A model generated the notes under the pieces. That model was given only the letters and a program-made list of their open reading frames with translations, did no database searches and was not told where the DNA came from. A program made the position numbers and the translations under genes. A stretch of 64,000 bases of DNA from Euglena gracilis (taxonomy: Eukaryota): assembly GCA_039621445.1 (NCBI GenBank), contig CP154954.1, forward strand, positions 18,772,642-18,836,641, in the 5' to 3' direction. How positions within the stretch are numbered: position 1 is the first letter of the stretch; every line of letters begins with the position of its first letter. Positions 45,601 to 63,960 of this stretch are shown piece after piece.

Positions 45601-48600
45601 ACGTTCATTTTGGGTAAAAAAAAAACAGTTTTTCCAGGTCCAGTAGGCAAAAAAAGAATGGTTTTGGACAAATCTTTTTCGATTTTTAACTTTTTTGGGG
45701 CGCAAAAATGGTGTTTCCAGGTCCAGGAGGCCAAAAAACATGGTTTTGGACAAAAAAATCCCCCCCCCCTCTAACCCCCCCCCACCCCCCCTAACCCCCC
45801 CCCTACCCCCTAACCAGGTTTTGAATAGTGCTGAGCTCTTAATAAGCGCGCACCCACCCCTTCATTGACCCCTCCATACATACCGGCCCACTCCATGGAG
45901 CTCTTTTGCCTGAAATCCATGGGTTTTGTGCCAGAAATGGGGGGGCCGGTGGGTCGCAAAACGCTCATTTTCGGCTCAAAAACAGTTTTTCCGGGTCTGG
46001 GAGGCCTAAAAACATCGTTTCGGGCAAAAAAAATTTTTTCGATTTTTTTCGCCTTTTTTGACCCGGTTTTGACCCAAAGTCAATGGGTCGGCGGCCCAAA
46101 ACGAGGCGCTGGCAGGTCGAAAAACGGTCGTTTTCGGCTCAAAAACAGTTTTTCCGGGTCCGGGAGGCCAAAAAACATCGTTTTGGGCAAAAAAAAAATT
46201 TTCGATTTTTTTCGACTTTTTTGACCCGGTTTTGACCCAAAGTCAATGGGTCGGCGGCAAGGTTGACGGCTTGTTTTTTTTTGAAACAAAAAAAACATGT
46301 TTTTTTTAAAAAAATATGTTTTTTTTAAAAAAAACAAAAAAAACGTCATGGAGGGTTTGGGGGAAAAATTTTTTGCAATGTTTTTTTTGGGAAAAAGTGC
46401 ATTTTTTATCTCTACAACATTCATTTTTTTCGGTTGAAAGCATGATTTTTCGCACCAGAAAACACAGATTTGGAAATACTTTCACACATTTGAAAAAAAA
46501 AAACTTCACAGGGGGTGTTCCCCCCATGACCCCCCTCCCCCAACCCGACCTAAGACCCGTTTCGGCCATTTTTTCTGAAAAACTTGGCCGGTGATGCCTA
46601 ATTTGACAAAATATTCCGGTAGATTTCCTAATTTTCCTATTTTTGGATTCCTATTTTGGAGCATAAAAAGGATTTTTTCCCAAAAATTCGTTTTCGGTGA
46701 TTTCTAATCTGGCCACCGAAAATGTGACCCCCCCTCGTGACCCCCCCCCCTGTGACCCCCCCCCGTGACCCCCCCCCTCGTGACCCGAACCACCCGCGAA
46801 AAATTTTCTTCAAAAAAATGGTCATTTCGCAAGGAAAAAGGTCAATTTTTGCTTTTTCAAAAAAAAACATGTTTTTTTTGTGTTTTTTTAAAAAAAACAT
46901 GTTTTTTTGTTTTTAAAAAAAAAACAAAAAAAACGTCAACCCTGGTCGGCGGCCCAAAACGGGGCGCTGGCGGGTCGAAAAACGCTCGTTTTCGGCTCAA
47001 AAACAGTTTTTCCGGGTCCGGCAGGCCAAAAAACATCGTTTCGGGCAAATTTTTTTTTGATTTTTTTCGACTTTTTTGGCCGAAAACGGCTAAATCGAAC
47101 AGTGGAAAAAGTGTACAAAATGGCCTAAAATGGCCTAAATTGGCCGAAAAACGCCCGTATCTCGGGCTACGCGGGGAGTTGTGGGGAAACCATAATCCCA
47201 GTACATAGAGCGTCCCAGGGGCTTCAATTTAGGTCTCTGGACATTTCCTTTGATTTTGCATCATTTTCGAGAAATTTTGAAAACATTGGTTTTTTGACCC
47301 CCCACCCCCCGAAAACGGCCAAGTCGAACAGTGGGAAAAGTGTACAAAACGGCCATCTGGGCCAAAAACGGCCGTATCTCGGGCTAGGCGGGGAGTTGCG
47401 GGGAAATCAAAATACCAGTAGATGGGGCGTTCCAAGGGCTTCAAATTAGGTCTCCGGACATTTCCTTTGATTTGGCTTCATTTTGGAGATATTTTGAAAT
47501 TTGACATTTTTTGGCCGAAATGGCAGAGTCCAAAGGGGGGGGGGCTTATCCAGGTGGGGCGGGTATCCTACCCAGTTTGGACCCCTTCGCGCGTGAATAA
47601 CTCGGGCCTGGCGGGGAGTTGGGGGTCAACTCCGGGTGATTCGGAAACTAGGAATCCAGTCGCTCGCGACTGAAAAAAAAAAATCCGGGAACGGGGCCGG
47701 GATCATGGTGATAATCCGTCGGTTCTCTGGTGGCCCCGACCCGGGGGCGGGGGGAGGGGGGGGGTCGAGGGGGGGGGTTCGCCGGTGGTATGCTTCGCTC
47801 TTACCCATAAAGGGATAAGAGCGCAGCGCCCCCCCCCTAACCCCCCCCCTACCCCCTAACCCCCCCCCCTACCCCCTAACCCCTCCCCTACCCCCTAACC
47901 CCCCCCCTGACCCCCCCCCTACCCATTCCCCACTTCGTGCCATATGTGCCTAGGGGGCACCACAGTTGTGAAATTAGGATTTCCCAGTGACAGAAAATAA
48001 GAGCTCCAGGCGGCATGGCTGAATTTGGTGGTGACCGCCAGTCGTCTGTTGAAAAGAGCTTTCGATTGAGGGGTGACTTTGTACCTAGACGATTGACACA
48101 GCCAGAAATACCCTCGCGATCGCCGGAATTTGGTGAAATGGAAAGTGGCGTGACATTGCAGATCAGTGGTCCGAGATTGGTCCTGGGAGTGTCCTTTGAC
48201 CGAAGGTTGGGGACGCCGGTTCTGTCCTGAACCCGGCGTCTCTAAAACGCCGCTTTAAACAAGGGGTGGCGGACGCCGGTTCTGTCCAAAACCCGGCGTC
48301 CGGAACGCCGGGTTTTGGACAGAACCGGCGTCCGCCACCCCTTGTTTGTAGTAGAGGGGGGGGGGTGCGGGGGGGGGGGCCCAGAGCCCCCCACCGCCTG
48401 TGCCAAAGTGAGCCACAAAAACGACTTAGCCCCCGAGTATGTTGCCAACATAGAAGGGATTTTGCTATTTGAGGGGGGGGGTGCGGGGGGCAGAGCCCCC
48501 CCCCGCCCAAAATGGAAAAATGTCCATTTTGGGCCACTTTTGGCAAAAGAACACCTCCCCATTGGGTTTTCAATATGAGTCAAAATTTCGCACAAAAAGG

Positions 48601-51600
48601 ACTTAGCCCTCCAAGTATGTTGCCAACATAGAAGGGATTTTTTTATTTGAGGGGGAGGTGCGGGGTGGGGCGGAGCCCCCCCCGCCTATGCCAAAGTGAG
48701 CCACAAAAACGACTTAGCCCCCGAGTATGTTGCCAACACAGAAGAGATTTTGTTATTTGAGGCTCGGATGGGGGTGGAGGGGGGAGTTTTCTGCCTCTCA
48801 TGATGCAGAATGCTTGCATTTCTAAAGGATTTTCATGTAATCCCTGTTTCATTGATTTTTTACCCCTCCGGACCCCCATCAAGGGCCCACCGACCCCCGC
48901 CGACCAAAGATTTCCATCTGAGGGTGTTTATGTTGGTGTAAGGCACTTATTTGGACCCATCCGGATTATTTCCGGGTGATTTGGGCCCGCCACAGACCAT
49001 TTTTATGACCACCGACTAGTTTGCATAGGATTTTGTTCATCGGGGGGGGGGGCTTAAAAGTCGGCGGTTTTGACCCGTTAGTACATTAGAGTGGGCAGTC
49101 GGCTGACTAGTCAGCCGACTGCCCACAACCCCCCCCCCCCACCCCGTCTCGCCGACTAGTTACCGACCCGGCCTAGTCGGCCGACCAATTGGGTAGTCGG
49201 CCGACTACCCACTACCCCCCCCCCCAGTCCACCGCCATGCGCCACCCCTGGAGCCAGCACCCCTCCAGCCAGCACCTTTTTTTCCGACCGGCTTGCAGGA
49301 CCCCAGGGGCAGGGTTTGATATAAGGACAGGTGGGGGGGTGGTCCGGACCCCCCCCCCCCCCTGCGGGCCAGGAGGGGGGTGGGGGGGGGGGGCACCCCC
49401 CCACCTAAACAGTGGCGCGGTCCGGGTGACTGAATTTCGGCCCGGCGCAAAGCGCCGGGCCGAAAATTTTTGGCCCCCCAAAACGACCACAAGTGCCATT
49501 TTGGGCACTTTTTGGGCAAAAATTTACCAAAAATGCAAAAAATTTTCGGCGCAAAGCGCTGGAGGAAAAAATTGACCCTTTTTTGGGGGGGGGGTCCCGG
49601 GTGCCCTCCCAGGGTCGGTCCGGACCCCCTGGCAGGTTTGGTTTGGTTTGGTAGTGCCCCGCATTGCTGCGCAGTGCCTCCAGCCGTGGGCGTACACAAG
49701 CACCACGCAGGAGGGCACCCCCGGAGCCCGGGCATGAAGCAGGGGAAGGAAGCCCTGCAGGAGAGGGAGGTGATTGGGGGTCGTCACGGGCTGCAGGACG
49801 GGCGGGGGGAAACCATCGAGGCCCAATCGGAGGGGGGTTGGGGATCACAGTACGCTGTAGGGGTACTCACTCATCGGGGAGGGGGCCTGACAGGGGTTCG
49901 TGGTCCCCGGGCCTCCTACCTTTTTTCTCTCTTTGATTTTGGTCTGCCGTGCCCTACTCTCAGAGACCCCGGTTCCTCTCGGCTTTAGGCCAGCTCTGCT
50001 ACATCCTCCGGGTCATCTCAGCTCGTACCACAACAGGCATGCCCCACTCCCCCCTGTGTAAGTGACAGTCAAAAGTCGAGATCATTAAGCCACTATCTGT
50101 AGAACTGCGGGTCCGCTGGGTGGCCACAGTGGGATCTTACAAAGGGGGGGGGAACGGTGCGGGGGCACACGCTAGTGTGCACGGGGGGTCAGCGGCACCG
50201 CCTGGCGGGTTGGTCGCGCTGCGTGGCGAGGGCAGACAGCGGCCCACGCAGCCACACAATGGGGGGGTTGGATAGCATTGCTGTCGAGTTGGTTGGACCG
50301 AGGCACAGAGGACACCACGGGGGGATCATGTGGACGAGGGGCTTTTCAGAGAAATCTGGTAATCTCCCAACCCCCACCTGGAGGCTGTTTACCTGGATAT
50401 GAGTTGTTCTGGGGGGGCTATAGGTTCAGTGGTAGGGCGCTCTAGGGATGAGTTGGGAAGTCCCCTGGCAGGTGGGGGGGGGGTGGTCCAGACCCCCCCC
50501 TGCGGGCCAGGAGGGGGGGGGGGGTGGGGGACACCCCCCCACCTAAACCATGTACGCCCTCCTTATATCAAACCCTGCCCAGGGGTCCTCACATTCCCTG
50601 GTCAAAACAATAATCAACAATGGATCACTAAGAAGCTTAGGGAAATGGTTTCGGCAAAAACCCGAAAAAAAAATACCGAAAAATCACAAATGCAAGTTTT
50701 CAATCTTACCACCCCCAAACGAAACAAAATGACAGGGACGTTTTGGAAGGCAAATGGCAGAACATTCTGACAAAAAAAAGAGCAAAAATTGGGTTTTTTG
50801 GGGCCTGCCGATCACGAAAATCAGGTGTAGGTCAGCACACCATGTGCTGAGAAGCCAAGCCCAGTGGGGGGAGTTGCAAAGTCGAGGGGACTTTGGGGGG
50901 GGTGCCCTTGCATCACCTTCCCAATTTCTGATTTCTGCTGTAATCTATTCACGGCTATCATGGAAAGATGCACGGGATGAGAAAAAAGTTTGGTGAATGG
51001 GAAATTTGAGGGGGGGGAAAATGATGGGACATGGGGCAAAAAATTCGGATGGGAGGGGGGAACATGGGTGATTTTGGATGACGAGCAACCGGTTTTGACA
51101 ACGTGGGCAGAAATTTTGGGACGGTTGGGGGACAAAATAATGTGAGTGTCTGTCAATGAAAGGAAATTCAATATGAAAGGAAGGGAAACGTTTAACGAAT
51201 GCTGAGGAACTTGGAGACTTGGGATCCAAAGGAGGGTTGAAACAAAAATCATTTTTGACCGGGGGGTTCCACCCAGGGCTTCGATGGTCCAAACATACCA
51301 TGCCCCCCCTGATAGTGTCCCCCCCCCCCCGATAGTGTCCCATACCCCTGCCTTGGGACCCGGCCGGCCGGTCCTAAAGAAATTTTATTGACCCCCCCGA
51401 TAGTGCCCCCCCCCCCCGATAGTGTCCCATGCCCGCCCCTTGGTTGGGCCGGGTATGGGACACTGTCGGGGGGGGGGGGCATGGTAAACCTATTTCCTGG
51501 GCCAAATTTGTCATGAATTTCTACTGGCGTGAACAGAACTCAGGTGGAATCATTTCCAAGATCATCCAATCACCTCCGTTTGATCCCACAACTCTCTGCC

Positions 51601-53433
51601 AGTGCCAAAATCCCTTGTGTCAAGCCATGTGTTTTGCCCAGGCGTTTGATAAAGATTAAATGTCACCTGGGGGCCATCAGGTGGGTGTTTACGAACCACA
51701 AGAAAAAAAGCCACTGGCTCCCCCAGGGGGGGGTCCGGGAGTCTCCCCAAAATTCCATCCCCAGCGCTGCGCACCAAGGTGAAAATAAAATGATGTGTTT
51801 TTGTCTGAGCCTGTCTGATTGTTCCAAATTTTTTTGGTAATCCCGCAAATTGCCAAAAAATCAGCATTTTTGGCAGGTGTATTGGGGGCCGGTCACTGGG
51901 AAAATTTTTTCAGTAGAAAAATAGTCAATTAAAACCTGGAAAGGAAAAACCCGGAAAGGAGTGTGTGATAGTTGTCTAAAGTCCTTTGGGAGTCAGCAAG
52001 TTGACTCTCCCCAATGGTGGTGACTTCCACTAAAAGCAAAGAAAACCCAGAATAAGGCAACAGGGGGAAACACACCAATCTTGTCAACCAAATCGCCGTT
52101 TGCCCTCGTTCGCACTTCACCTGCTGCATATTCCAGAACACAAAAAGAATAGCGCTCAAAAACCAAAAATAGAAGGTCCTTTTGCTCTCCCTGCACAATG
52201 GAAACAAAAGAAGAAACACCCACAGCCGGCAAAAAAAAGTTTCCCCAACCTGTTTCTCCAACCAACCAAAATTTTTGCTCAGCACCTTCAAAAAAAAAAC
52301 GGTCTCAAGGGTCTCAAAAATTTAGCTCTGGGTCCAAAAAGTATTTGCACTTGTTCAGAAAAAAGTTGGACTCCGTCATTTTGTTTTTTCTCTGGAAAAG
52401 GGCCTCCCTCTGCACCAATGGAAAAAGGTTGATGGAAAAGGGTTGGGGTTGCAAAGGGCAACTGTGCAAAGCACCCAATCCAAATGCAAAAAATTTGGAA
52501 CGGAGGAAAATATTTTTAGGATTAGGTGCAAACTTTTCAAAATGAAATACAAACAAATTGGTGGTGTGTGCAAACTGTTTTGAGATAGAGTGCAAAAAAA
52601 TTGACCGGAAATGCAAAAATATATGGTGTGAAGTGCGAAAAAGTCGGTTGTTAGGTGTAAAAAAAACCCTGAAAAGCTTACACTTAGTGTCTGAAATGTT
52701 TGCCCACGGCTGGCAAAAATATTTGCCCCAACCCGAAAATTTTTTTGCCCAGCGTCCTCAAAAAAAATTGCCCAAAAGTCCCAAAAATATTTGCACTTGT
52801 TCGGAAAAAATCTGCACTCCGTCAATTGATCTTTGCTCAATGAAAAAGAGCCCCACACTGGACAATGGAAAAAGTTCCACACTGATTGAAGGTTCTGATG
52901 CGAAAACTGTGTCCAGAACGCCGGTTCGGGCGTAAAGCTGTGGCCCAGAACGCGGCGCTGTCTTGGCAACCGCCAGACATTAGCAATACAGACTGAAATC
53001 CAGTAATGTCTGGAGAATTCAAGACAGGAAAATGGGTTGGAAGCTGGAATTCGGTTCAAAGCCAGGCTCACCCCCATGGCAGGAAAAAGTGGGCAGGACA
53101 AGGCATTGTAAAGCCGCTTTCAGGTCCCGAAAACCTTGGTCAGGGAGGCATCAAATGTCAAACGAGAAAGCGAAACGAACCAATGGTCTGTATGTCTGCA
53201 TGAAGATGATCCTCCCATACAAAGGAATGTCCAAAATGGGTTGTAGCCCTTCTGAGGCAACGGTGTGGATGTTCAGGCGGGTGCACTTGCTACAGATAGA
53301 TGGGAGAAAACAGCTCAAGTCTTTTGGCAAACCTCACAATCAAGTTCAGGTCAGTGGGAGATGTGAAATTGGATGTCAAGCAGCGGGTTGCAGCCGTTGG
53401 TTTGTGGGCTGTAACCACATAGTTGAAAGCCAT
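91..53433 (-). CDS. DDB1: DNA damage-binding protein 1 (DDB1), 32 exons in window, 3' end outside window
   Basis: Exons are colinear with DDB1 as recalled: [125 protein letters not shown]. Splice phases were checked by hand. Confidence 0.96.
310..368 (-). CDS. DDB1: DDB1 exon 31 ([19 protein letters not shown])
   Basis: AG/GT boundaries. Confidence 0.9.
836..943 (-). CDS. DDB1: DDB1 exon 30 ([21 protein letters not shown]...VAEKDIK)
   Basis: AG/GT boundaries. Confidence 0.93.
961..1068. repeat. (GT)/(GCGT) compound microsatellite
   Basis: Seen directly. Confidence 0.9.
1790..1882 (-). CDS. DDB1: DDB1 exon 29 ([30 protein letters not shown])
   Basis: AG/GT boundaries. Confidence 0.92.
2083..2399. 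mobile_element. MITE, CAGGGCGGTCC family
   Basis: 16-bp TIR with 1 mismatch; TSD GGGATGCC. Confidence 0.9.
3779..3850 (-). CDS. DDB1: DDB1 exon 28 ([23 protein letters not shown])
   Basis: AG/GT boundaries. Confidence 0.88.
5692..5774 (-). CDS. DDB1: DDB1 exon 27 ([27 protein letters not shown]), variable loop
   Basis: AG/GT boundaries, phases fit both neighbours; weak homology. Confidence 0.7.
6882..6945 (-). CDS. DDB1: DDB1 exon 26 ([21 protein letters not shown])
   Basis: Starts within a TSD; GT donor. Confidence 0.88.
6951..7312. mobile_element. MITE-like element acting as DDB1 nonconventional intron 25
   Basis: Imperfect TIR CAGGG(G/T)TC...ATA; TSD CCCCCAGC at 6943-6950 and 7313-7320; body resembles 49310-50577. 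Confidence 0.9.
7316..7363 (-). CDS. DDB1: DDB1 exon 25 ([16 protein letters not shown])
   Basis: AG acceptor; ends within a TSD. Confidence 0.9.
8035..8115. repeat. (CG)n(CA)n microsatellite
   Basis: Seen directly. Confidence 0.95.
8116..8203 (-). CDS. DDB1: DDB1 exon 24 ([11 protein letters not shown]...[11 protein letters not shown])
   Basis: AG/GT boundaries. Confidence 0.9.
8635..8670 (-). CDS. DDB1: DDB1 exon 23 ([12 protein letters not shown])
   Basis: Matches NHKLVFSNVNLK; GT donor; non-AG acceptor inferred. Confidence 0.85.
9215..9368 (-). CDS. DDB1: DDB1 exon 22 ([15 protein letters not shown]...[14 protein letters not shown])
   Basis: AG acceptor; nonconventional donor inferred. 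Confidence 0.88.
9984..10478. mobile_element. MITE, CAGGGCGGTCC family, with nested element at about 10025-10248
   Basis: TSD CGATGAAG/CAATGAAG; nested element carries AATAACCTGGC repeats. Confidence 0.8.
10952..11111 (-). CDS. DDB1: DDB1 exon 21 ([27 protein letters not shown]...)
   Basis: AG/GT boundaries. Confidence 0.92.
11818..12845. mobile_element. 1-kb non-autonomous TIR element
   Basis: 19-bp TIR CAGGGATCCTCACA(T/C)TTCC; subterminal CCGTGATTTT 10-mer arrays; TSD unclear. Confidence 0.75.
12892..12970 (-). CDS. DDB1: DDB1 exon 20 ([26 protein letters not shown])
   Basis: AG/GT boundaries. Confidence 0.9.
13666..13747 (-). CDS. DDB1: DDB1 exon 19 ([27 protein letters not shown])
   Basis: AG/GT boundaries. 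Confidence 0.92.
14524..14952. mobile_element. MITE, CAGGGCGGTCC family, with internal foldback duplication
   Basis: TSD CCCCCAGC/CACCCAGC. Confidence 0.8.
15359..15439 (-). CDS. DDB1: DDB1 exon 18 ([26 protein letters not shown])
   Basis: Starts within a TSD; GT donor in phase with exon 19. Confidence 0.85.
15445..15938. mobile_element. MITE-like element acting as DDB1 nonconventional intron 17
   Basis: Ends CAGGGGCTTTTT...AAAAAATCTCTG; TSD CCCAGGGC at 15437-15444 and 15939-15946. Confidence 0.85.
15942..15988 (-). CDS. DDB1: DDB1 exon 17 ([15 protein letters not shown])
   Basis: Homology to the NISVASCN region; flanked by non-canonical introns. Confidence 0.78.
17012..17071 (-). CDS. DDB1: DDB1 exon 16 ([20 protein letters not shown])
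   Basis: AG acceptor; 3' boundary uncertain by a few nt. Confidence 0.85.
19227..19325 (-). CDS. DDB1: DDB1 exon 15 ([19 protein letters not shown]...FFVQ)
   Basis: AG/GT boundaries. Confidence 0.88.
20173..20227 (-). CDS. DDB1: DDB1 exon 14 ([18 protein letters not shown])
   Basis: Starts within a TSD; GT donor. Confidence 0.85.
20233..20444. mobile_element. MITE-like element acting as DDB1 nonconventional intron 13
   Basis: 16-bp TIR CAGGCTT(C/G)TTTTTAAG; TSD GAGAGCAC at 20225-20232 and 20445-20452. Confidence 0.9.
20448..20526 (-). CDS. DDB1: DDB1 exon 13 (MWSLL...AKYLV)
   Basis: AG acceptor; ends within the TSD of a nonconventional intron. Confidence 0.85.
20943..21051 (-). CDS. DDB1: DDB1 exon 12 ([36 protein letters not shown])
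   Basis: AG/GT boundaries; highly conserved motif. Confidence 0.95.
24248..24339 (-). CDS. DDB1: DDB1 exon 11 ([26 protein letters not shown])
   Basis: AG/GT boundaries; highly conserved motif. Confidence 0.93.
24691..24999. mobile_element. MITE, CAGGGCGGTCC family
   Basis: TIR; TSD CTTTTTCC. Confidence 0.9.
26415..26514 (-). CDS. DDB1: DDB1 exon 10 ([29 protein letters not shown])
   Basis: AG/GT boundaries. Confidence 0.92.
27075..27729. mobile_element. Two adjacent foldback MITEs
   Basis: TIR pair CCCCCAATTAGAAGCCCCC (about 27075-27500) and TIR pair ATGGCCCCCCCAGGGGG (about 27503-27728). Confidence 0.6.
28370..28710. mobile_element. TA-flanked MITE (Tc1/mariner-like)
   Basis: TA-CAGCTAA...TTAGCTG-TA; internal inverted GGCCAAAAT repeats. 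Confidence 0.65.
29261..29354 (-). CDS. DDB1: DDB1 exon 9 ([15 protein letters not shown]...DVIGE)
   Basis: AG/GT boundaries. Confidence 0.92.
30179..30327 (-). CDS. DDB1: DDB1 exon 8 ([19 protein letters not shown]...WCRIDNQ)
   Basis: AG/GT boundaries. Confidence 0.92.
30587..30658. repeat. (TA)n microsatellite
   Basis: Seen directly. Confidence 0.95.
30677..31044. mobile_element. Element with ATGGCACAAAGT ends and (TATGGGG)n arrays
   Basis: TSD ACATGTAT/ACATATAT. Confidence 0.75.
31221..31918. mobile_element. CAGGCC...GGCCTG MITE hosting a nested CAGGGCGGTCC copy (about 31238-31551)
   Basis: TSD CCAGGTAC/GCAGGTAC. Confidence 0.75.
33534..33633 (-). CDS. DDB1: DDB1 exon 7 ([14 protein letters not shown]...[11 protein letters not shown])
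   Basis: AG/GT boundaries. Confidence 0.9.
35096..35214 (-). CDS. DDB1: DDB1 exon 6 (LEKPAAV...[12 protein letters not shown]), 5' boundary uncertain
   Basis: Homology at [10 protein letters not shown] donor in phase with exon 7. Confidence 0.75.
36305..36409 (-). CDS. DDB1: DDB1 exon 5 (GLLKVIPI...[16 protein letters not shown]), 3' boundary uncertain
   Basis: AG acceptor and clear homology; no convincing in-frame GT donor. Confidence 0.8.
37384..37457 (-). CDS. DDB1: DDB1 exon 4 ([24 protein letters not shown])
   Basis: AG/GT boundaries, phase consistent. Confidence 0.9.
44409..47948. mobile_element. 3.5-kb composite element with ATGGCACGAAG ends and telomere-like arrays
   Basis: TSD CCTAGGGG; empty site present in the inverted host copy near 59735. 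Confidence 0.75.
49310..50577. mobile_element. MITE with perfect 18-bp TIR carrying a nested insertion
   Basis: TIR CAGGGTTTGATATAAGGA; TSD CCCAGGGG at 49302-49309 and 50578-50585. Confidence 0.9.
49638..50461 (-). mobile_element. Probable 5'-truncated non-LTR retroelement
   Basis: 12-bp direct repeat CCCCTGGCAGGT on both sides; (CCAAA)n tail; degenerate CPLC motif. Confidence 0.55.
52076..52190 (-). CDS. DDB1: DDB1 exon 3 ([21 protein letters not shown]...ANGDLVDKI)
   Basis: AG/GT boundaries; followed by a 14.6-kb intron. Confidence 0.92.
53181..53289 (-). CDS. DDB1: DDB1 exon 2 ([36 protein letters not shown])
   Basis: AG/GT boundaries, phase consistent. Confidence 0.92.
53333..53433 (-). 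CDS. DDB1: DDB1 exon 1 ([33 protein letters not shown])
   Basis: ATG at 53433; followed by a 43-nt GT-AG intron. Confidence 0.92.
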
Positions 53434-56400
53434 TGGCCCCAAAAGTAGGCCTGTCCAACTGCAATAATAATCACACTGTTGCTGTGACACAAAGCAAGGA
53501 ACCTTCGGATGACCTGATGGCTGGGTTGGGCAGGCATTATTTTAAATGGTGCAGGGGGGGCTTTGCAGGTTTCCTGGCCACCAGAGCAAAACAGTATCAA
53601 TGGAAGGTTTGGAAGGAGAAATAAAAGCGAACAAATTGGAGTCAACTGATAAAATGTTCTGGGGTGATGTGTAAGCCTCTGGGTGGCAAAATGTTGTCCA
53701 CCTGGGGGGCAGGTAACTCCCAACCCTAACCGTATTCCTTCCCATGACCCTTTACAGACCCAGAAGAGAGAAATCTCAAAAAAAAAGGGGATTCTTTTGT
53801 GCGCCTCAAAAATAATGCCTCGTGGGGGTCCTCAAATTTGGTTCATTTGCACCAACACAGAGGCCGACCCCGGGGGGGGGTCCAACATGGGAGATCAGGC
53901 AGCAGACTTTGACAAGGGGTGAAGGACTCTGTGTTTTTTGGGTGATTATGGGGTTATTGAAGGAGCAGGGGGGCGACTGCAGTACAGTTGGGGTTTTTTG
54001 GGGACCCCCCCCTCCCCCCCCCCCGTACAGTTGGGATTTTTGGGACCCCCACCCCCCCGAGACAGATGAAAATTTTGACACCAAAAATGGCCTTTTTAGA
54101 CCAAAAAAAGGTCCTAAAATTTTTTGGCCAATTTTTGAGGGGGGTTGGCAGTAAGTTGGGACCCCAGGACCCCCCCCCTGTGTTGAGACAGTACAGCAAA
54201 AAGTGCCAAAAAAATGCAAAAAAAAACTGACCTCGGGACCGGACCCCCCCTCCCCCCCCACCTGCCAAAGCTCCAGGGTTAGGGCAATATGGCCATGGCA
54301 TGGCGATGTTGCCCTAACCCTACTCCCCATAATCCCACAATCACCCATAATCCCCATAATCACCCAAAAAATAGGGCGTCGTGCGACAACCGAAAAGGCC
54401 GTCGTGCGAAAACAGATAAGTGCCCGAGTTCACCGCAAGAGCACTTTTTGGCCAAAAATGGTTAGGGTCAGGATGCATCGCACAACAACGGCCCCTACAG
54501 GATACCAGCTACCCCAAAGAGCCGCCCAACCAGGGTCACCCTCACCCCCCCCCTCAAATAACCAAAACTTTTTGGCAATTTGGTTTATCCCCCCCAAAGT
54601 GGCCATTTCCCTTCAGCAACAAAAGGCGCAGAAGGCCAAAATTTGCCCCCCCCCTCCTGGGTGGCCATTTTGGGGTCCCACGGTGCCTGGAGGGCGGCCA
54701 CTTTGAGCGGGGGGGGGGTGAGGGTTATACACATCGGGGGACCCTCGCTCGGCGCCTCGCTCGGGTCCCCCCATCTTTTTAACCCTGGTTGGGCGGCTCT
54801 TTGCAGCGTTTTTTGGACGGGGGGGCAAAAATTTTGAAATGAGTGTGCAAAAATTTTTGGGAAGGGAGGCAGAAAAAAGGAGAGACCGGGCAAAATATAG
54901 TGAGTGTTAGCTGTAAGATTCTCATGCAAACAGTTGCACCCTTCCCGCTCAACATCGTTATATTTGCCGCTCCCGGGTACTCAGTGAACCCAATGTGCCA
55001 ATACGGCAGGGCCATATTCCACAAACCCTAACCCTATCCCCCCCTTCAAAAAATAACCACAAAAACCACCCAAAACGGCTGAAAGAGACCCCAAGGGAAA
55101 GCATTCTGGCCGTTCCAAGGGCGTCGTGCGATAACCAAAAGGGGGGGGGGTGTCGTGCGATAACAGACAAGTACCGTTGATTTTTACTGTTTAGGCATTC
55201 ATCCGCACCTCTCATTCTTTCCCCAAACACAGTTGAAGGTTTTTTTTGTAGGGTATCAAACAAATTTCCTTCTGGAGAGCTGTCTGCAACATTCTGTGAA
55301 ATTTCAATTGTTATTATTTGGATTTGGATTGATGATCACATTTATTTGTCGTATTTCTGTTAATTTATGCTGATTCTGTTGAACGTTTCCTTTTCACATT
55401 AACGGAAAAAAATTCTTTTACAGTTGGCAAAAGTTTCGGATCTCAAGGGCAAAAGTGATGGGATTTGTGGCAAAAAAATTGACCCGGGTGGCAAAATATT
55501 TTTTGGAACCCTGGCAAAAGTGAGGGGTCCAGGAGGCACTGTATTTTGGGACGGGGCAGAATTTGGAGGGGTTAGCTATAACCCCACTAACCCTACTCCT
55601 TCAAAACCCCATCATACCCCATTTCTGACCTCAAGGGAACCGACTTGTGAAATTTGGAGATGGCAGTTGTTTATCTAACAAGTTCCCAAAATCCCTTGCC
55701 AAACCATTTTGGGCCTCAGATTAACTGCTTTTCGGGTGTTTTTGGATGTTTCTTTGTGTAAAACTGTTTTGATATTTTTGAAAAAATCACTGTTTGTTCC
55801 AAATAAAAAGTGTTCTTACCCACCCGTTTTGCATTTTCTTGGCGTTTCAACCACACAGTCCCCTTTGGGATGAAGTGGATCAAACAAATCACATTCGCCA
55901 TATACACGTGGGCTGCAGCATGGGAAAATCACGGTCAAAAATGTGTGGGAACATCATGAAATCCACCAAATGGTGGGGCATTTGCTGGACTTTGTGGAAG
56001 TTACGATTTCTGAAAGTAAATAGGCCAAAATGGTCGGATTTGGGCTGGCCAGGGCAAATTTGGGGTCAAGCAAAAGAAGTTGTTTTCATAATTGACTTTT
56101 TTGGGAGGGGCTTTTTGCAGTTTCAAATTTTTTTGGCACCCATTCCAGCCAGGGGGCCCCATTCGGGTCAACCTGCAGCCCATTTCCAGCCTGCCCAATT
56201 TTCGAGTTGCGCTTGCGCTGTTCCCAAATGCGCAAACAAGAACAAAAGAAATAATTATTGCCTGACTGTTTTTTATCCTTGTTGATGGTTTGCAGTGATT
56301 GCTGCATGCTGCATTTGTGTGAACGTGAACCTTAATGGAGCAAGGCAGCAAGCCACACGAGAAGGATGGGGTGCCAAGGGTAATGTTGAATGACGATAAT

Positions 56401-56477
56401 TTCATTAGGATTTCCCAAAGCATGTCCCTTTTTGCAACTCTTTTTATTTGAGAAACATTTCCCGATCGCAGGGCATC

Positions 56478-56549
56478 GGTCTTATAGTGTAGCGGTTAGC
56501 ACATGGGATTCTGATTCCCATAACCCCGGTTCGAATCCGGGTAGGACCT
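56478..56549 (+). tRNA. tRNA-Gln (anticodon CTG)
   Basis: 72-nt cloverleaf: acceptor stem GGTCTTA/TAGGACC, D arm GTGT/GCAC, anticodon arm TGGGA-TTCTGAT-TCCCA, T arm CCCGG-TTCGAAT-CCGGG. Confidence 0.95.
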
Positions 56550-56551
56550 GG

Positions 56552-56557
56552 TTTTTT
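56552..56557 (+). terminator. Pol III oligo-T terminator
   Basis: T6 run 2 nt after the tRNA. Confidence 0.7.
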
Positions 56558-57846
56558 GCACTTTTTTTGCCCCAACGGGGTATTCCTAATTGCATGAAAC
56601 AGCATCCGAATCACATCCCCTGGCCGCATCCGACCGGCCTGCCCACTCCAAACCATCTCTGCCTAACCCTTACTTCCCCTTCCCCTGAACCTATCTCCTA
56701 CCTTAACCTATCTCCTATCTTTGACACAATCAGATACACACTCGCTTAACTGCGCCTGCCCGAAAGAGCCACAGACCGTATGCTCTTATCCACGTGATAA
56801 TTCACCCTGTCTCTGGTGCCCTCACACCCCCCTCTCTTTTTCCCCTCCTCTACCTTTCACACTGGTCCTCTGGACCATCACACATAAACCTGCACTCCCA
56901 AACCCCCAACCTTGAGCTTTGCTCAAGCATCCGCTCCCTCACTCGTGCTTGGTATTTGTACATACTCCTAACCATCTAGCACTTCCCTTGAACGCGCCAC
57001 TTCTGTACATAGCCTTGCTCTCCTGAACTCGTCAAATCCAGTGAACTCCCCTAATAAGTGCACGAGTGCGCACTTAGCGCTTATTTGGGCACTGCACACT
57101 TTTTTCGGCAAAGCCAAAAATGCTCACTTTCCCCCAAGGTTGACGGCTTGTTTTTTTTTGAAACAAAAAAAAACATGTTTTTTTAAAAAAAAATATGTTT
57201 TTTCAAAAAAACAAAAAAATGTCATGGAGGGTTTGGGGGAAAATTTTTTGCAGTGTTTTTTTTTTGGAAAAAAGTTCATTTTTTATTTCTGCAGCATTCA
57301 TTTTTTGATTTTTTGGGGTTGAAAGCATGATTTTTTGCACCAGAAAACACAGATTTGGAAATATTTTCACACATAAAAAAACTTTAGAGGGGGTATTCCC
57401 CCTGTGACCCCCCCCCCGACCCGACCTGAAACCGTGTTTGGGCCGATTTCGAGACATTAAAAGTCTTAAATCTTCGCCCAAAACACGGTTTCAACCAAGA
57501 ACAGTGTTTTGGGCCAATAACATTCCCCATTGTATGGGTAGGCGGAGGTTTGGTGCTTGTGCTTATTTTCTATTTGAAAATGTCTCAGATTCAAAATTTC
57601 GAAGATTTGGAAAAAAAACTGAATCGGACAACCTTCTCCTGCAGATCAATTTTCAAATACTGTCACTGAGAACCAAAAGGAAAACGAAGGAATGCTGGGG
57701 TGCTGTGTGAGTGAATTGTGTTTAACAAGAAGGTTCCCAAAATCAAAACAGCGGAATAGATGAAAATATCGAACTTAAGAAATAAAGTTTTGGAGCAGCA
57801 AAATGAATTGTCAGCTTGGGTCATTGGCAGATGGCCGGGCCTGCTT

Positions 57847-58024
57847 GCCATACATCAACTCTGGCTTCGGCCGCTTATTCTGCATGTAGGTCATGAATGA
57901 GTGGAGGTCGAGCTGGCCTCTCTGCTGGGCGTCCACTGCCTCAAACATCCGGTCGATGTCCACATCATGGCTCGGGTAATTCAGGTAGCGGCACAGCCGC
58001 TGCAGCTCGGCCCGATCCAACTCA
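57847..58024 (-). CDS. EF-hand protein exon (ELDRAELQRLCRYL...FEAVDAQQRGQLDLHSFMTYMQ), 3' boundary approximate
   Basis: Completes the loop DTDGSGELDRAE and contains a second EF-hand-like loop. Confidence 0.8.
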
Positions 58025-58537
58025 AAGCGCAGATCCATCAGCACCGAACCATCAAAAAAAGATTGATTGAGATAATTCCAAACTGGGGTGAGAAATTTGG
58101 CACGAGAAGATTGAAACAAACCTGGAACTGGGAGGTATTTTGTCTATAAAAAAAAAACTTCAAAATAAAAATGGGTGACACCATTATCCAATTTTGCCAC
58201 AAAATTTGTCCTTCTTTTCATTTTTCTTGTGCAACCCATCCTCCCAACCATATCTTTTTCAACAAAAACAATGAGGAAAATTCATCTGATGACCTTTAAT
58301 TGTCCATCATCAGATGCCATTCGTAGGAACTTCATTTTCTTTTCCAACTTTCCTACCGCCTCCCTCCGTCTACCAACTACAGCTGCCGGTGCTGCTGCTG
58401 CTGGTGCTACGTATCCTCCCCACAGTCTCTTCCGTCAATGCTTCTGATTTTCAAGCCATTTAACACGACACCTCACATCTCCTCACGCCAGCACCTGAAA
58501 CGATGGTCCCACACCTCCGCCGATGGATCCACTGGCG

Positions 58538-58714
58538 CCACTGCCATCCGTGTCAAACGTCACGAACTGGCAGAGCACATGGTCGTAGTCGTCCTGCGAC
58601 ATCCCGTACTGGGTCCAGGGGCGGCTGGGGTCGACCTTGACAGTGGCCACCGGGGCCGGGACTGGCATGGGGGCAGGGGGAACCCCCAGGCTGGGGGCGG
58701 CTGGCGTTGCCTTG
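58538..58714 (-). CDS. EF-hand protein exon (Pro/Ala-rich segment then ...QFVTFDTDGSG), 5' boundary approximate
   Basis: GC3-rich codons; first half of an EF-hand loop. Confidence 0.75.
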
Positions 58715-59295
58715 CTTGCATTGGATATTTCCACCCAAAAATTAGGATTACCCCAAAATTTGAAGTTGGATAGGATTGCCACGCAAAATTTGAAGTTTAC
58801 ACCTAAACTTAGGCATATCCCTTCCAAAAATTAGATATCACACCCAAAGATCGGCAGTGCTCCCCCAAGATTTGGAGTTTGCTTCCCAAATTACCATCCG
58901 TACTATTCCCCCCCCCTCGTACTCTTCCCATCCCCGGTTTGGAAAGAGTACGATGGTGGGGCACTTTTTCCCACGGGGCCACCATGCTTCAAACGATTTC
59001 CTTTGAGGTCCATGGGAAGAGTACGGGGGGGGGGGACATAGTCCCCCCCCCGTACTATTCCCCACCGTACTCTTCCCATGGGGCTCAGAAGGCGCCCAAG
59101 GAGGGGAAGAGTTCAGGGGGAGGCATGGTAGGCATTTGTCACTCAAAGTTAGGAATTGGCCAACAAATTAGGCATTTGCCTCTCAAATTTCAGTAAAATT
59201 TTCACCCGAAATTTGGCATTTGCCACTCAAAATTAGGAATTTATACATGCAATTAGGAATTTCCACTCAAATTCAAGAATTGGCACACTAAAATT

Positions 59296-60260
59296 TACTA
59301 CAAAAAAGGGGTGGCGGACGCCGGTTCTGTCCAAAACCCGGCGTTCCAAACGCCGGTTCCGTCCTTCGGACGGAACCGGAACCGGCGTTTGGAACGCCGG
59401 GTTTTGGAGAACCGGCGTCCGCCACCCCTTGTTTAAAGCGGCGTTTTAGAGACGCCGGGTTCAGGACAGAACCGGCGTCCCCACCCTTCGGTCAAAGGAC
59501 ACTCCCAGGACCAATCTCCGACTACTTATCTGCAATGTCACGCCACCTTGCATTTCACCAAATTCCGGCGATCGCGAGGGTATTTCTGGCTGTGTCGATC
59601 GTCTGGGTACAAACTCACCCCTCAATCGAAAGCTCTTTTCATCAGACGACTGGCGATCACCACCAAATTCAGCCACGCCGCCTGGAGCTCTTACTTTCTG
59701 TCACTGGGAAATCCTAATTTCACAACTCTGGTGCCCCCCGGGACCCCTCAGGTGGTCGCTTCGAAGAGAAGAAACGTTTCTGTAAGGTTTATTCAGCATC
59801 TTAAACCAAAAATCACTGAAAACTACCACAATTTTCGACTAAGATTCTGGCCGATCCGACGATCGCGAGCGTATCTCTGGCTGCGTGCAACGTTAGGGTA
59901 CCAAGTTACCCCTCGATCGAAAGCTCTTTTCAACAGACGACCAGCGGTGCTCATCAGATCTTTCCACGCCGCACGGTACTCTTTATCAAAATCTGGGCCA
60001 ATTTCACCAAATTTGGACATCCACCCCACTGGTCCCCAAATGGCAAAAATCATTGTCCTACATGGTTAAAACAGTCATACCAGGAGCTTTGGGCCACTTT
60101 TGGGCACTTTTGGTGGCATTTTTAGGAATGAAAATCGGACGCCGGGTTTTGGACAAAACCGGCGTTCCTAACGCCGGGTTTTAGGACAGAACCGGCGTCC
60201 GAAAACCCGTGGGGGGGGACGCCGGTTCTGTCCTGAACCCGGCGTCTCAAACGCCGGTTT
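59296..60260. mobile_element. Hairpin-ended repeat, intact copy (interrupted inverted copy at 43881-48353)
   Basis: Colinear reverse-complement match to 43881-44400 plus 47958-48353. Confidence 0.7.
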
Positions 60261-60369
60261 AAGAATTTGCCTCTCAAAATTTGGAACTGGAATACCAAAT
60301 TAGGCATTTGCCACCCGAAACAAGCTTAACAACCTGAGCCGGCTTCGATCGCCCCAGCCGTGTGCTCCC

Positions 60370-61140
60370 CAAAAGGATTTGCCCCTAAAACGAGCTGGAC
60401 ACGCAAGGGATTTTGTTATTGGGGAGCCTCCAACAGTTGAGCAACACAAGGGATTTGGCCACCAAAACGACTTGGCAACACAAGGGATTTTGTTATTTTG
60501 GGGCACTTGAACAGTTGAGCAACACAAGGGATTTGCCCCCCCCCCCAAACGGGTTTGAAACACAAGGGATATGCCCCTAAAACGACCTGGCAACACAAGG
60601 GATATTGTTATTTTGGGGCCCTCAAACAGTTGAGCAACACAAGGGATTTGCCCCCCTCCCAAATGGGTTTGAAACACAAGGGATGTGCCCCTCATATGAG
60701 CAACGTAAGGGAGTTGCCCCTCAAAACGGGTTTGAATTACAAGGGATTTTCTCCCCAAAACGACTTGGCAACACAAGGGATTTTGTTATTTTGGGCCCTC
60801 AAACAGTTGAGCAATACGAGGGATTACCCCCCAAAACAGGTTTGAAACACAAGGGATTTGCCCCCGAAAACGACCTGGCAACACCAGCTATTTTGTTATT
60901 TTGGGGCCCTCGAACAGTTGAGCAACATGAGGGATTTGCGCCCCCCCCCCCCAAATGGGTTTGAAACACAAGGGATGTGCCCGTAAAACGACCTAGAAGA
61001 GTTGAGCAACGCAAGGGGTTTGCCCTCAAAACAGGTTTGAATTACAAGGGATTTCCTCCCCAAAACGACTTGGCAACACAAGGGATTTTGTTATTTTGGG
61101 GCCCTCGAAGAGTTGGGCAAAAGGGATTTGGCAACACAAG
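60370..61140. repeat. Degenerate tandem repeat (CAACACAAGGGATTT core)
   Basis: Motif recurs many times; resembles the 110-bp unit in opposite orientation. Confidence 0.8.
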
Positions 61141-62466: not shown

Positions 62467-63960
62467 CGGCGCAAGGCGGTAGACTGGGGGTAGTCGGCCG
62501 ACTAGTCGGCCGACTACCCAATTGGTCCACCGACTAGTCCTAGTCGGTAGCTAGTCGGCGAGACAGGGGGGGGGGTAGTGGGTAGTCGGCCAACTAGTCG
62601 GCCGACTACCCACTCTAATGTACTAACGGGTCAAAACCGCCGACTTTTAAGCCCCCCCCCCATGAACAAAATCCAATGCAATCTAGTCGGTGGCTAGTCG
62701 GCGGTCATAAAAATGGTCTGTGGCGGGCCCAAATCACCCGGAAATGGTCCGGATGGGTCCAAATAAGTGTCTTACGCCTAAATAAACACCCCCAGATGGA
62801 AATCTTTGGTCAGTGGGGGGTCGGTGGGCCCTTGGTGGGGGTCCGGAGGGGTAAAAAACCAATGATGAAACAGGGATTACATTAAAATCCTTTAGAAATG
62901 CAATCTGCAATCTGCGTTTTGCATCACGAGAGGCAGAAAACTCCCCCCTCCACCCCAATCCGAGACTCAAATAACAAAATCCCTTCTGTGTTGGCAACGT
63001 ACTCGGGGGCTAAGTCGTTTTTGTGGCTCACTTTGGCATAGGCGGGGGGGGCTCCGCCCCCCCCGCACCCCCCCCCTCAAATAACAAAATCCCTTCTATG
63101 TTGGCAACATACTCGGGGGCTAAGTCGTTTTTGTGGCTCACTTTGGCATAGGCGGGGGGGGGCGCCCCCCAACCCCCCCCCAAAAAACAAAAACCCTCCT
63201 CTGTTCGCAACATACTCGGGGGCTAAGTCGTTTTTGTGGCTCACTTTGGCATAGGCGGGGGGGCTCCGCCCCCCCCGCACCCCCCCCCCTCAAATAACAA
63301 AATCCCTTCTCTGTTGGCAACATATTCGGGGGGTAAGTCGTTTTTGTGGCTCACTTTGGCATAGGCGGGGGGGGCTCCGCCCCCCCCGCACCCCCCCCCT
63401 CAAATAACAAAATCCCTTCTGTGTTGGCAACATACTCGGGGGCTAAGTCGTTTTTGTGGCTTACTTTGGCATAGGCGGGGGGGGGCGTCGCCCGCCCCCC
63501 ACCCCCCCCCCAAATAACAAAATCCCTTCTATGTTGGCTATAGACTTGGGGGATAAGAACCTTTTTTTGTGCAAATTTTGACTTATACTGAAAATTCAAT
63601 GGGGAGAGGTGTACTTTTGTCAAAAGTGGCCCAAAATGGACATTTTCCCCCAATTTTTTTGCATATTCACCCCCGATTGGGGGGTTCTGGAGCCATTTGG
63701 GTCGGTTTTGACCGGCGTTGAGGTGATTTAGACTTTTTTTTTTACCAGGGGGGGGGGGGGGGCTTAAAAGTCGGCGGTTTTGACCCGTTAGTACATTAGA
63801 GTGGGTAGTCGGCCGACTAGTCGGCCGACTACCCACTACCCCCCCGCCGACTAGCCACCGACCAATTAGTCGGCCGACTAGTCGGTGGACCAATTGGGTA
63901 GTCGGCCGACTAGTCGGCCGACTACCCACTACCCCCCCCCCAGTCTACCGTTTGGCACTG
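62467..63960. mobile_element. 1.5-kb TIR element with CTAGTCGGCCGACTAG palindrome arrays
   Basis: TIR core CGGTAGACTGGGGG; flanking GGGATGC duplication; inverted copies in DDB1 intron 3. Confidence 0.7.
62968..63540. repeat. Tandem repeat of about 110 bp, about 5 copies
   Basis: Unit start CAAATAACAAAATCCC at 62968, 63078, 63181 (variant), 63291, 63401, 63511. Confidence 0.9.

What the first reader, a model, noticed from the sequence alone, without database searches (positions are those of the whole stretch)
58025..58537. Independent test of the 3+5 rule in the EF-hand gene
Cutting 3 nt before CAG (58534) and 5 nt after CTG (58030) joins GG+T and yields a canonical EF-hand loop DTDGSGELDRAE. 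The ends pair as CAG(TGG)ATCCATCGGC with GCTGATGGATCTG. The TSD has fully decayed, so the junction is unambiguous here.
Basis: partly seen in the sequence, partly recalled or inferred. Interest (0 to 1): 0.72.

Follow-up and report, generated by a model that had tools for sequence, protein, structure and literature searches.

The report
Known Euglena-type intron, junction one base off

Summary
The window is euglenid nuclear DNA, probably Euglena gracilis. Its closest protein is an E. longa transcript product. On the minus strand, two exons of a U-box/EF-hand gene (58713-58537 and 58023-57846) flank a 513-nt AT-richer intron without GT-AG ends.

RNA from 4 runs of 4 studies joins the exons (2 contigs, 14+1 reads). 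The intron is real and DTDGSGELDRAE is restored.

Relative to CAG/CTG that is 2+6 or 1+7, not 3+5.

Two caveats apply:
- The transcripts differ from the window by about 2%, so they come from other alleles or copies. A synonymous C/T difference at 58024 would rescue 3+5.
- Three different junctions give the same protein, so the junction is not "unambiguous".

The "3+5 rule" is already published as the Euglena nonconventional splicing code, 5'-N3CDG-/-CH'GN5-6|R (PMC12501133). This is an ordinary member of a known class.

In passing: the window holds MITE-like elements with CAG...CTG ends and intact 8-bp target-site duplications. This hAT-like signature fits 3+5=8.

The parts
58537..58713 (-). 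Upstream exon of the U-box/EF-hand gene (encodes ...KVDPSRPWTQYGMSQDDYDHVLCQFVTFDTDGSG). The 3' end is at 58537, or 58536 if the junction slides by 1.
   Evidence: RNA contigs X4 record 10 and X12 record 6 cover 58536-58713. tblastn of P0001 aa 89-121 gives 88% identity, E 1e-14.
58024..58536 (-). Nonconventional intron, 513 nt, as supported by RNA. 58023-58535 fits equally well. Ends are GC..TT (or CC..TG), with no GT-AG.
   Evidence: table 5: joint from 58022 to 58536, skips 513, both=1; X4 1 contig, X12 1 contig, X21 14 reads (14 starts), X24 1 read.
57846..58023 (-). Downstream exon (ELDRAELQRLCRYLNYPSHDVDIDRMFEAVDAQQRGQLDLHSFMTYMQNKRPKPELMYG): the rest of EF-hand 1 and all of EF-hand 2.
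   Evidence: RNA contigs cover 57846-58022. tblastn of P0001 aa 120-183, E 3e-31. Pfam EF-hand_7 E 7e-4 on this exon alone, below the cut-off.
58532..58534 (-). CAG motif near the intron's 5' end.
58030..58032 (-). CTG motif near the intron's 3' end.
58519..58532 (-). 5' arm of the terminal helix (continuous 14-bp register).
   Evidence: MFE pair table; register energies.
58029..58042 (-). 3' arm of the terminal helix.
58714..58721 (-). 3' end of the preceding intron: ATG CAAGC | A. TG lies at -7/-6, followed by a 5-nt spacer; the intron ends in a pyrimidine and the exon starts with a purine.
   Evidence: Transcripts leave the window sequence at 58713 (loose ends in X4 and X12); sequence.
57830..57845 (-). 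5' end of the following intron: exon ...TATGGC(A) then AG CAG GCCCGGCC. CAG lies 2 nt after the last aligned exon base, or 3 nt if the next exon begins with A.
   Evidence: Loose end at 57846 in X4. The continuation translates to ISKKQYE.., like P0001 aa 184 onward. Sequence.

Best explanation
58023/4-58535/6 (minus strand) is a nonconventional euglenid nuclear intron. It sits inside the Gly codon at position 6 of the first EF-hand loop of a U-box/EF-hand protein gene.

Shown:
- It lacks GT-AG ends.
- Its ends are held together by a 13-14-bp helix next to CAG...CTG.
- It is removed from mature RNA, with little or no retention.
- The mRNA reads ...GGC AGT GGC|GAG TTG..., restoring DTDGSGELDRAE.

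Inferred:
- It is removed by the still-unidentified structure-guided machinery that cuts at fixed short distances outside the terminal helix (published code N3-CDG...CH'G-N5-6|R), not by U1/U2-type splice-site recognition.
- It began as an insertion of a hAT-like MITE (CAG...CTG termini, 8-bp target-site duplication). The duplication has since decayed.

The product seen is not the 3+5 product of the window sequence. There are three ways to account for it:
- (a) The cut here is 2+6. This gives pyrimidine|purine at both junctions (C|G...T|G).
- (b) The machinery reads the more stable continuous helix, whose outermost pair is 58532-58029. The cut is then 3+6|A relative to that helix.
- (c) The expressed alleles carry C instead of T at 58024, a synonymous CpG/TpG difference. 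The intron is then a 'slidable' 3+5 intron.

My odds are (a)+(b) about 0.55, (c) about 0.35, and other causes (for example a 1-nt indel in the spacer of the expressed allele) about 0.1.
For: RNA evidence:
- A joint from 58022 to 58536 skipping 513 nt appears in all 4 runs laid, which come from 4 studies.
- Support is one X4 contig (177 and 178 nt on the two sides), one X12 contig, 14 X21 reads from 14 start positions, and 1 X24 read.
- Depth in the mostly intronic bin 58180-58549 is 0.15/0.42 in X21, against 2.3-7.1 in the exon bins.

Protein evidence:
- The E. longa protein P0001 reads DVDGSGELDRVE without a break.
- The in-script spliced translation aligns to P0001 aa 63-183 with 94 of 121 identities and no gap at the junction.
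- P0001 carries U-box (42.9 bits) and EF-hand_7 (69.5 bits) domains.

Terminal helix.

A compatible variant: an unspliced X12 contig of another allele has A>G (minus strand) at 58528, turning A-U into G.U within the helix.

Literature:
- Splicing code, spacer lengths and purine preference: PMC12501133.
- E. gracilis consensus CCAGG at +3..+7 and CCTG at -9..-6: PMC11170887.
- Pyrimidine|purine at both junctions and CA/TG at +4,+5/-7,-6: PMC3935182.

Transposon context: 4 of 23 clean CAG...CTG inverted-repeat pairs in the window have at least 7 of 8 identical flanking 8-mers, against 0 of 23 in a control shifted by 10 nt.
Against: - The RNA is not demonstrably from this locus. Contigs differ from the window at 7-8 of 355 exon bases. 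At 57968, 0 of 17 X21 reads carry the window's base (this is His in the window, Arg in the reads and in P0001).
- The exons that flank these two in the transcripts are not in the window. The 30-mers and 17-mers from the loose ends find 0 matches, and tblastn finds no exon for P0001 aa 184-445. The window copy may therefore be a gene fragment, or it may have very long introns.
- In PMC12501133, changing the 5' spacer by +/-1 abolished functional transcripts. That argues against a 2-nt 5' spacer, option (a).
- C at the acceptor exon start performed worst in the same paper. That argues against option (c).
- The closing triplet of the continuous helix (GUG/UGC) is not CDG/CH'G. That argues against option (b).
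- No second copy of the intron is in the window and its flanks match at 2 of 8, so the transposon origin of this particular intron is inferred only from its class.
- One search lists only the best 15 joints (9 are not shown) and needs at least 3 reads. A minor GG|T product from the window's own haplotype could have gone unseen.
Confidence: 0.85

Rival explanations
1. The window allele is cut 3 nt before CAG and 5 nt after CTG, giving GG|TGAG. The GGC|GAG reads come from other alleles whose first acceptor-exon base is C, which makes them slidable 3+5 introns.
For:
- The 5' spacer was intolerant to +/-1 in the knock-in tests.
- The transcripts are clearly from non-identical alleles: 9 variable exon sites, 5 of them synonymous third positions.
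- 58024 is a third codon position, and C there would be part of a CpG, so C/T is a likely polymorphism.
Against: - No listed joint gives GG|T in any of the 4 runs.
- It needs a difference at exactly this base. Sites where nearly all reads differ from the window are 3 of 355 exon bases.
- It gives purine|pyrimidine at the donor and a pyrimidine at the acceptor exon start. Both go against the reported preferences.
Confidence: 0.3
2. The window copy is a non-functional or unexpressed partial duplicate (two exons plus the intron). All RNA comes from a paralogous full-length gene elsewhere. What is seen is still an intron by descent, but this locus is not spliced at all.
For: - Neither neighbouring exon of the transcripts is in the window: there are 57.8 kb downstream and 5.3 kb upstream, and 0 matches.
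- Published E. gracilis intron lengths reach only about 8.2 kb in a draft-based set.
- 0 of 17 reads match the window at 57968.
- The window is dense in repeats.
Against: - Both exons are open and 78-92% identical to the E. longa protein, with no frameshift or stop.
- 3 of 21 X21 reads carry the window's base at 57877 and 1 of 14 at 58563.
- The flanking intron ends look like intact nonconventional splice sites.
- Low-depth intron contigs about 97% identical show that the alleles share the same intron.
Confidence: 0.25
3. It is a conventional spliceosomal intron with non-canonical ends.
For: Euglena has GC-AG introns.
Against: - No AG at the 3' end under any RNA-compatible border (TT or TG).
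- No match to the E. gracilis 5' consensus GTGTG.
- A strong terminal helix is typical of nonconventional introns and mostly absent from GT-AG introns.
- The two conventional introns of the neighbouring gene (52190-53179 and 53290-53332) show clean GT..AG in the same data.
Confidence: 0.03

Closest known systems
Nonconventional (NC) nuclear introns of euglenids and their splicing code 5'-N3CDG-/-CH'GN5-6|R (PMC12501133; earlier PMC3935182, PMC4770533, PMC11170887)
   Same: - No GT-AG ends.
- CAG near the 5' end and CTG near the 3' end, which can pair, extended by a helix that brings the splice sites together.
- Purine at the acceptor exon start and pyrimidine|purine at both junctions under the 58537|58536...58024|58023 borders.
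- A 6-nt 3' spacer is allowed by the code.
- It sits in a gene whose neighbouring introns also have NC-type ends.
   Different: - With the window sequence and the RNA product, the 5' spacer is 2 nt (or 1), not 3.
- The thermodynamically preferred helix does not use the CAG:CTG pairing.
- Excision as a circle was not tested.
hAT-superfamily MITEs: 8-bp target-site duplication and short inverted ends often starting CAG (PMC3517528), and transposon-derived introns or 'introners' (PMC11282704)
   Same: - The intron ends in CAG...CTG inverted repeats.
- The window holds MITE-like elements with the same termini and intact 8-bp duplications: 17413-18582, 24691-24999 and 49310-50577 at 8 of 8, and 9984-10478 at 7 of 8.
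- 3+5 = 8 means that excision at RNA level removes the element plus exactly one duplication length.
   Different: - The focal intron has no recognisable duplication (2 of 8) and no other copy in the window.
- No transposase was found in the 10 longest of 34 ORFs of 170 aa or more.
- The hAT assignment rests on duplication length and end sequence only.
Bulge-helix-bulge introns of archaeal and eukaryotic tRNA, cut by the tRNA splicing endonuclease (recalled, from no call)
   Same: As a working analogy only: the cut sites are set by distance from a helix formed by the intron ends, not by sequence at the junction, and the intron can be released as a circle.
   Different: There is no 3-4-3 bulge-helix-bulge motif here. 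The enzyme for euglenid NC introns is unknown. This is not proposed as membership.

Membership tests
Euglenid nonconventional intron | Absent from mature mRNA | tested here: met
   The joint appears in 4 of 4 runs. The RNA comes from alleles or copies about 98% identical to the window.
Euglenid nonconventional intron | No GT/GC-AG (or AT-AC) borders | tested here: met
RNA-compatible borders are GC..TT or CC..TG.
Euglenid nonconventional intron | Stable helix that brings the two splice sites together | tested here: met
   A 14-bp helix in the MFE fold. End duplex of -29.3 kcal/mol, in the top 1.3% of 3000 random pairs.
Euglenid nonconventional intron | CA(G) at +4..+6 pairing with (C)TG at -8..-6 | tested here: inconclusive
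   The motifs are present. Relative to the RNA-supported borders they sit at +3..+5 / -9..-7 or at +2..+4 / -10..-8. They would sit at the canonical positions only if the expressed alleles have C at 58024.
Euglenid nonconventional intron | Pyrimidine|purine at both junctions (PMC3935182) | tested here: met
C|G at 58537|58536 and T|G at 58024|58023.
Euglenid nonconventional intron | Released as a full-length circular RNA, not a lariat | not tested
   Known to me only from the text and reference list of PMC11282704. No back-splice joint was sought.
Nomura code 5'-N3CDG-/-CH'GN5-6|R | Exactly 3 nt between the donor junction and CDG | tested here: not met
   2 or 1 nt with the window sequence and the observed mRNA. 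It would be met only under the allele-difference rival.
Nomura code 5'-N3CDG-/-CH'GN5-6|R | CH'G followed by 5-6 nt and then a purine at the exon start | tested here: met
   CTG + CGCTTT | G for the 58024|58023 border.
hAT-like MITE insertion | 8-bp target-site duplication flanking the inverted ends | tested here: not met
   2 of 8 for the focal intron. It is met by other elements in the window.
hAT-like MITE insertion | Further copies of the element | tested here: not met
   blastn of the intron against the 64-kb window finds only A-rich matches of 22 nt or less. The rest of the genome is not held.
EF-hand calcium-binding loop | 12-residue loop D-x-D-x-S-G-x-L-x-x-x-E within an EF-hand pair | tested here: met
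   The spliced translation reads DTDGSGELDRAE and aligns to P0001 119-130. EF-hand_5 (30.9 bits, cut-off 25.9) has its best stretch at P0001 115-134; that stretch does not pass the E-value threshold on its own. The loop consensus is recalled. The spliced peptide itself was not run against Pfam, because joined sequence may not be typed into a tool.

The most novel reading that the evidence does not exclude
The fixed 3+5 geometry of euglenid nonconventional splicing may be the RNA-level counterpart of precise excision of hAT-like MITEs. The 3 and 5 nt add up to the 8-bp target-site duplication that such elements still carry intact in this same window.

The focal intron would then be an old, decayed insertion in which the two cuts have slid together by one base (2+6) while the sum stays at 8. 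That would mean the machinery follows local pyrimidine|purine context or helix register, not a strict 3-nt donor ruler.

My searches found the MITE hypothesis and one 8-nt direct repeat at a young intron (PMC4770533). They found no paper linking NC introns to hAT elements or to the sum 3+5 = 8.
Probability: 0.3. Interest if true: 0.5.

Novelty: already known. Interest (0 to 1): 0.25.

Why it matters
For the gene, the result shows that two separate ORF pieces encode one continuous EF-hand pair of a U-box/EF-hand protein.

For the rule, the lesson is cautionary. A peptide-level fit cannot fix a nonconventional splice junction to the base, and allelic variation of about 2% is enough to blur a one-base test.

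If the 2+6 cut is real in an allele with the window's sequence, it is a natural exception to the strict 3-nt donor spacer found in knock-in experiments. It would point to junction context or helix register as a second determinant of the cut.

The intact 8-bp duplications around CAG...CTG elements in the same window give concrete candidates for the long-suspected transposon source of these introns.

Tried and rejected
- The look-up of sequencing runs listed no RNA holder on record. Rows X1-X19 are guessed RNA with small shares. I laid two of them plus two raw RNA runs instead.
- The window's own genome is not held, so other copies or alleles could not be sought.
- Two metagenome scans with exon stretches next to the junction found nothing. 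These were meant to catch a genomic allele or a transcript.
- I searched the window for the neighbouring exons of the transcripts with 30-mers and 17-mers from the loose ends. There were 0 matches.
- I searched for the 3' partner of the following intron. No convincing CTG partner lies in 40000-57846, and the 14-mer search gave only chance-level hits: 6 against 7.6 expected.
- Pfam on the upstream exon alone returned 0 families.
- Pfam on the 10 longest of 34 ORFs of 170 aa or more found no transposase. The only hit was a weak, sub-threshold DDB1/CPSF1-type match.
- The fold of the whole intron is not unusually stable.
- The search of earlier findings returned nothing on two look-ups.
- Reads gave no strand information: the mate ratios are inconsistent between the two minus-strand genes.
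- Considered and rejected: RNA editing as the source of C for T. It is not needed, because C58537 supplies the base.
- Considered and rejected: a 3+6 cut. It shifts the frame and gives a stop.
- Considered and rejected: a 4+4 cut. It puts Val at the invariant Gly.
The supplementary figures and datasets of PMC12501133 may hold the frequency of 2-nt donor spacers, which would sharpen the odds between options (a) and (c).

Full report
**What is in the sequence**

On the minus strand the text reads ...GAC ACG GAT GGC AGT GG C GCC AGT GGA TCC ATC GGC... at 58553-58519. It reads ...GGT GCT GAT GGA TCT GCG CTT TGA GTT GGA TCG G... at 58045-58012.

- CAG is at 58534-58532 and CTG at 58032-30.
That translates as DTDGSGELDRAE.
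- The 8-mers outside CAG and CTG agree at 2 of 8 positions.
- Intron GC is 0.43 against 0.68 and 0.58 for the exons. The exon frame, read through, stops 19 codons into the intron.

**Whose gene it is**

The downstream ORF piece finds one protein, P0001. It is 445 aa, 92% identical over 84% of the query, with E 5e-38. Its accession prefix, GGOE01, is used for Euglena longa transcripts (one passage of 10.1101/573709).

P0001 has a U-box domain and EF-hand pairs. It reads ...CQFVTFDVDGSGELDRVELQRL... without interruption.

tblastn places P0001 aa 89-121 at 58644-58546 and aa 120-183 at 58038-57847. Nothing else in the window matches convincingly. The exons joined in a script align to P0001 aa 63-183 with 94 of 121 identities and no gap at the junction.

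The window therefore comes from a close relative of E. longa, most likely E. gracilis. That is an inference: the runs carry a coded species label.

**RNA test**

I laid two contig sets (X4, X12) and two raw RNA-seq runs (X21, X24), from four studies, on 49300-60370.

- All four show one joint at this intron: from 58022 to 58536, skipping 513 nt. One base fits either side.
- Support is one X4 contig with 177/178 nt on the two sides, one X12 contig, 14 X21 reads from 14 start positions, and 1 X24 read.
- Depth over the intron is close to nil once the 14 exon bases in that bin are allowed for.

On the minus strand the mRNA is ...GGC AGT GGC GAG TTG.... The removed stretch is 58024-58536 or 58023-58535. 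No GG|T joint is among the 15 listed; 9 weaker joints are not shown, and a joint needs at least 3 reads.

The peptide is the same, because GGC and GGT both encode Gly. Protein logic allows three junctions, 58538|58024, 58537|58023 and 58536|58022. So the junction was never 'unambiguous', and the RNA-supported one is itself slidable by one base.

**Caveat on the RNA**

The transcripts are not identical to the window.

- Contigs differ at 7-8 of 355 exon bases.
- At 57968, 0 of 17 X21 reads carry the window's base.
- At 57877, 3 of 21 do, and at 58563, 1 of 14.
- Of the nine variable sites, five are synonymous third positions and four change the residue. At 57968 the window has His where the reads and P0001 have Arg.
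- At least three expressed haplotypes exist.
- Low-depth unspliced contigs in X12 show the same intron at about 97% identity. One of them has a 1-nt indel that I could not place, and an A>G change at 58528 that keeps the helix (A-U becomes G.U).
- The exons next to these two in the transcripts are not in the window. The window copy may be a fragment, or it may have introns longer than 57.8 kb.

The junction could therefore be a 3+5 cut in alleles that carry C at 58024. That would be a synonymous difference at a CpG, and the window's own allele may never have been sampled.

**What it is and how it works**

Everything fits the nonconventional introns of euglenids.

- PMC3935182 (passages and section 12) describes variable non-GT-AG borders, a helix that brings the ends together, and CA/TG at +4,+5 / -7,-6. 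It also reports pyrimidine|purine at both junctions, frequent direct repeats at the borders, and a proposed MITE origin.
- PMC11170887 (passages and section 10) gives the E. gracilis consensus: CCAGG at +3..+7 and CCTG at -9..-6.
- PMC12501133 (abstract and sections 8, 9, 11) defines the code genetically as 5'-N3CDG-/-CH'GN5-6|R. It finds a donor spacer intolerant to +/-1, an acceptor spacer tolerant to +1, and a purine preferred at the acceptor exon start. C was worst there, and T was tolerated in one of two introns.

The trans-acting machinery is unknown.

**Reconciling the observed product**

There are three options:

- **(a) A 2+6 cut relative to CAG/CTG.** It gives C|G and T|G, which is pyrimidine|purine at both junctions, and an allowed N6|R acceptor. 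It breaks the 3-nt donor spacer.
- **(b) The continuous 14-bp helix is what is read.** It pairs 58532-58519 with 58029-58042. Three nt outside it on the donor side and six on the acceptor side give exactly GGCG|AG, the observed mRNA, with A at the exon start. Its closing triplet is not CDG/CH'G.
- **(c) An allele difference at 58024**, as described above.

Each option collides with one published preference. I put (a)+(b) at about 0.55 and (c) at about 0.35.

**Neighbouring splice sites of the same gene**

- The preceding intron ends ATG CAAGC|A. That is TG at -7/-6, a 5-nt spacer, and pyrimidine|purine.
- The following intron starts, after the last aligned exon base A57846, with AG CAG G. CAG is 2 nt away, or 3 if the next exon begins with A.
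- In the same data the neighbouring minus-strand gene (52075-53482) shows two clean GT..AG introns.

**Origin**

The window holds 109 CAG...CTG pairs with an adjacent contiguous stem of at least 7 effective bp, counted over both strands. Ten locally shuffled versions give 16-32.

On the plus strand, 32 pairs have a stem of at least 8 bp with at most one G.U. I dropped 9 of them because their stems were more than 70% one base. That left 23 clean pairs.

- Three of the 23 have identical 8-mers just outside CAG and CTG: 17413-18582, 24691-24999 and 49310-50577.
- One has 7 of 8: 9984-10478.
- A control shifted 10 nt outward gives none at 7 or more.

One family shares the end CAGGGCGGTCC. It gives 11 hits in the window, and two of its members are 73% alike over 224 nt.

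An 8-bp duplication with short inverted ends starting CAG is the signature of hAT elements and their MITEs (passages of PMC3517528). Removing 3 nt, the element and 5 nt restores exactly the pre-insertion sequence of such an insertion.

The focal intron has lost its duplication (2 of 8) and has no other copy in the window. Its transposon origin is therefore inferred from its class only.

The literature I read proposes MITEs and reports one 8-nt repeat at a recently gained intron (PMC4770533). My searches found no paper that names hAT or the sum 3+5 = 8. Supplements were closed.

**Verdict**

This is a real, ordinary member of a known intron class. The protein-level prediction is right. The base-level junction is not supported by the RNA, and the 'rule' is already published. 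Interest is low. The 2+6 exception and the hAT-like elements are modest leads.

Noticed in passing
window 9984-10478, 24691-24999, 31238-31551; further ends at 2389, 14524, 14796, 34566, 36050, 40825: A MITE-like family with inverted ends CAGGGCGGTCC...GGACCGCCCTG. The flanking 8-mers match at 7 of 8, 8 of 8 and 5 of 8, so the target-site duplication is 8 bp, a hAT-like signature. Two members are 73% alike over 224 nt.
   Followed up: partly
window 17413-18582 and 49310-50577: Two more CAG...CTG inverted-repeat elements with perfect 8-bp flanking repeats (CAAATATA and CCCAGGGG). The ends of the second element (49300-49669 and 50410-50779) have very high RNA contig depth, with many internal-deletion and strand-switch joints next to G/C runs. 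It looks like a high-copy element.
   Followed up: partly
window 52075-53482 (minus strand): A neighbouring expressed gene with two conventional GT..AG introns (52190-53179, 990 nt; 53290-53332, 43 nt). It is carried on contigs of 3158 and 3550 nt that continue outside the laid stretch. Its function was not looked up.
   Followed up: no
window 57846 and 58713 (minus-strand gene): The exons that precede and follow the two EF-hand exons in the transcripts are nowhere in the 64-kb window. Either the introns are very long (over 57.8 kb downstream) or this is a partial gene copy.
   Followed up: partly
window 57968 and 58563: The window haplotype has His (CAT) where all 17 reads and the E. longa protein have Arg. 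It has Val where 13 of 14 reads have Met, and here the E. longa protein agrees with the window. Several haplotypes or copies of the gene are expressed.
   Followed up: partly
window 44431-45303 and 47829-47921: Arrays of G-rich telomere-like units (GGGGTTAGGG / CCCCCTAA variants) in both orientations, inside a block of inverted and tandem repeats.
   Followed up: no
window 8807-9430 (minus strand): An ORF piece with a weak, sub-threshold Pfam match to the second beta-propeller of RSE1/DDB1/CPSF1 (E 2.9e-5, 23.9 bits against a cut-off of 30). It may be an exon of another gene.
   Followed up: no
window 42445-43880, 48345-49207, 62467-63958: Large dispersed and tandem repeat blocks (110-nt and 213-nt units), including the palindromic unit TAGTCGGCCGAC, at 84-95% identity. 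The window is repeat-dense apart from about 49300-59300.
   Followed up: no
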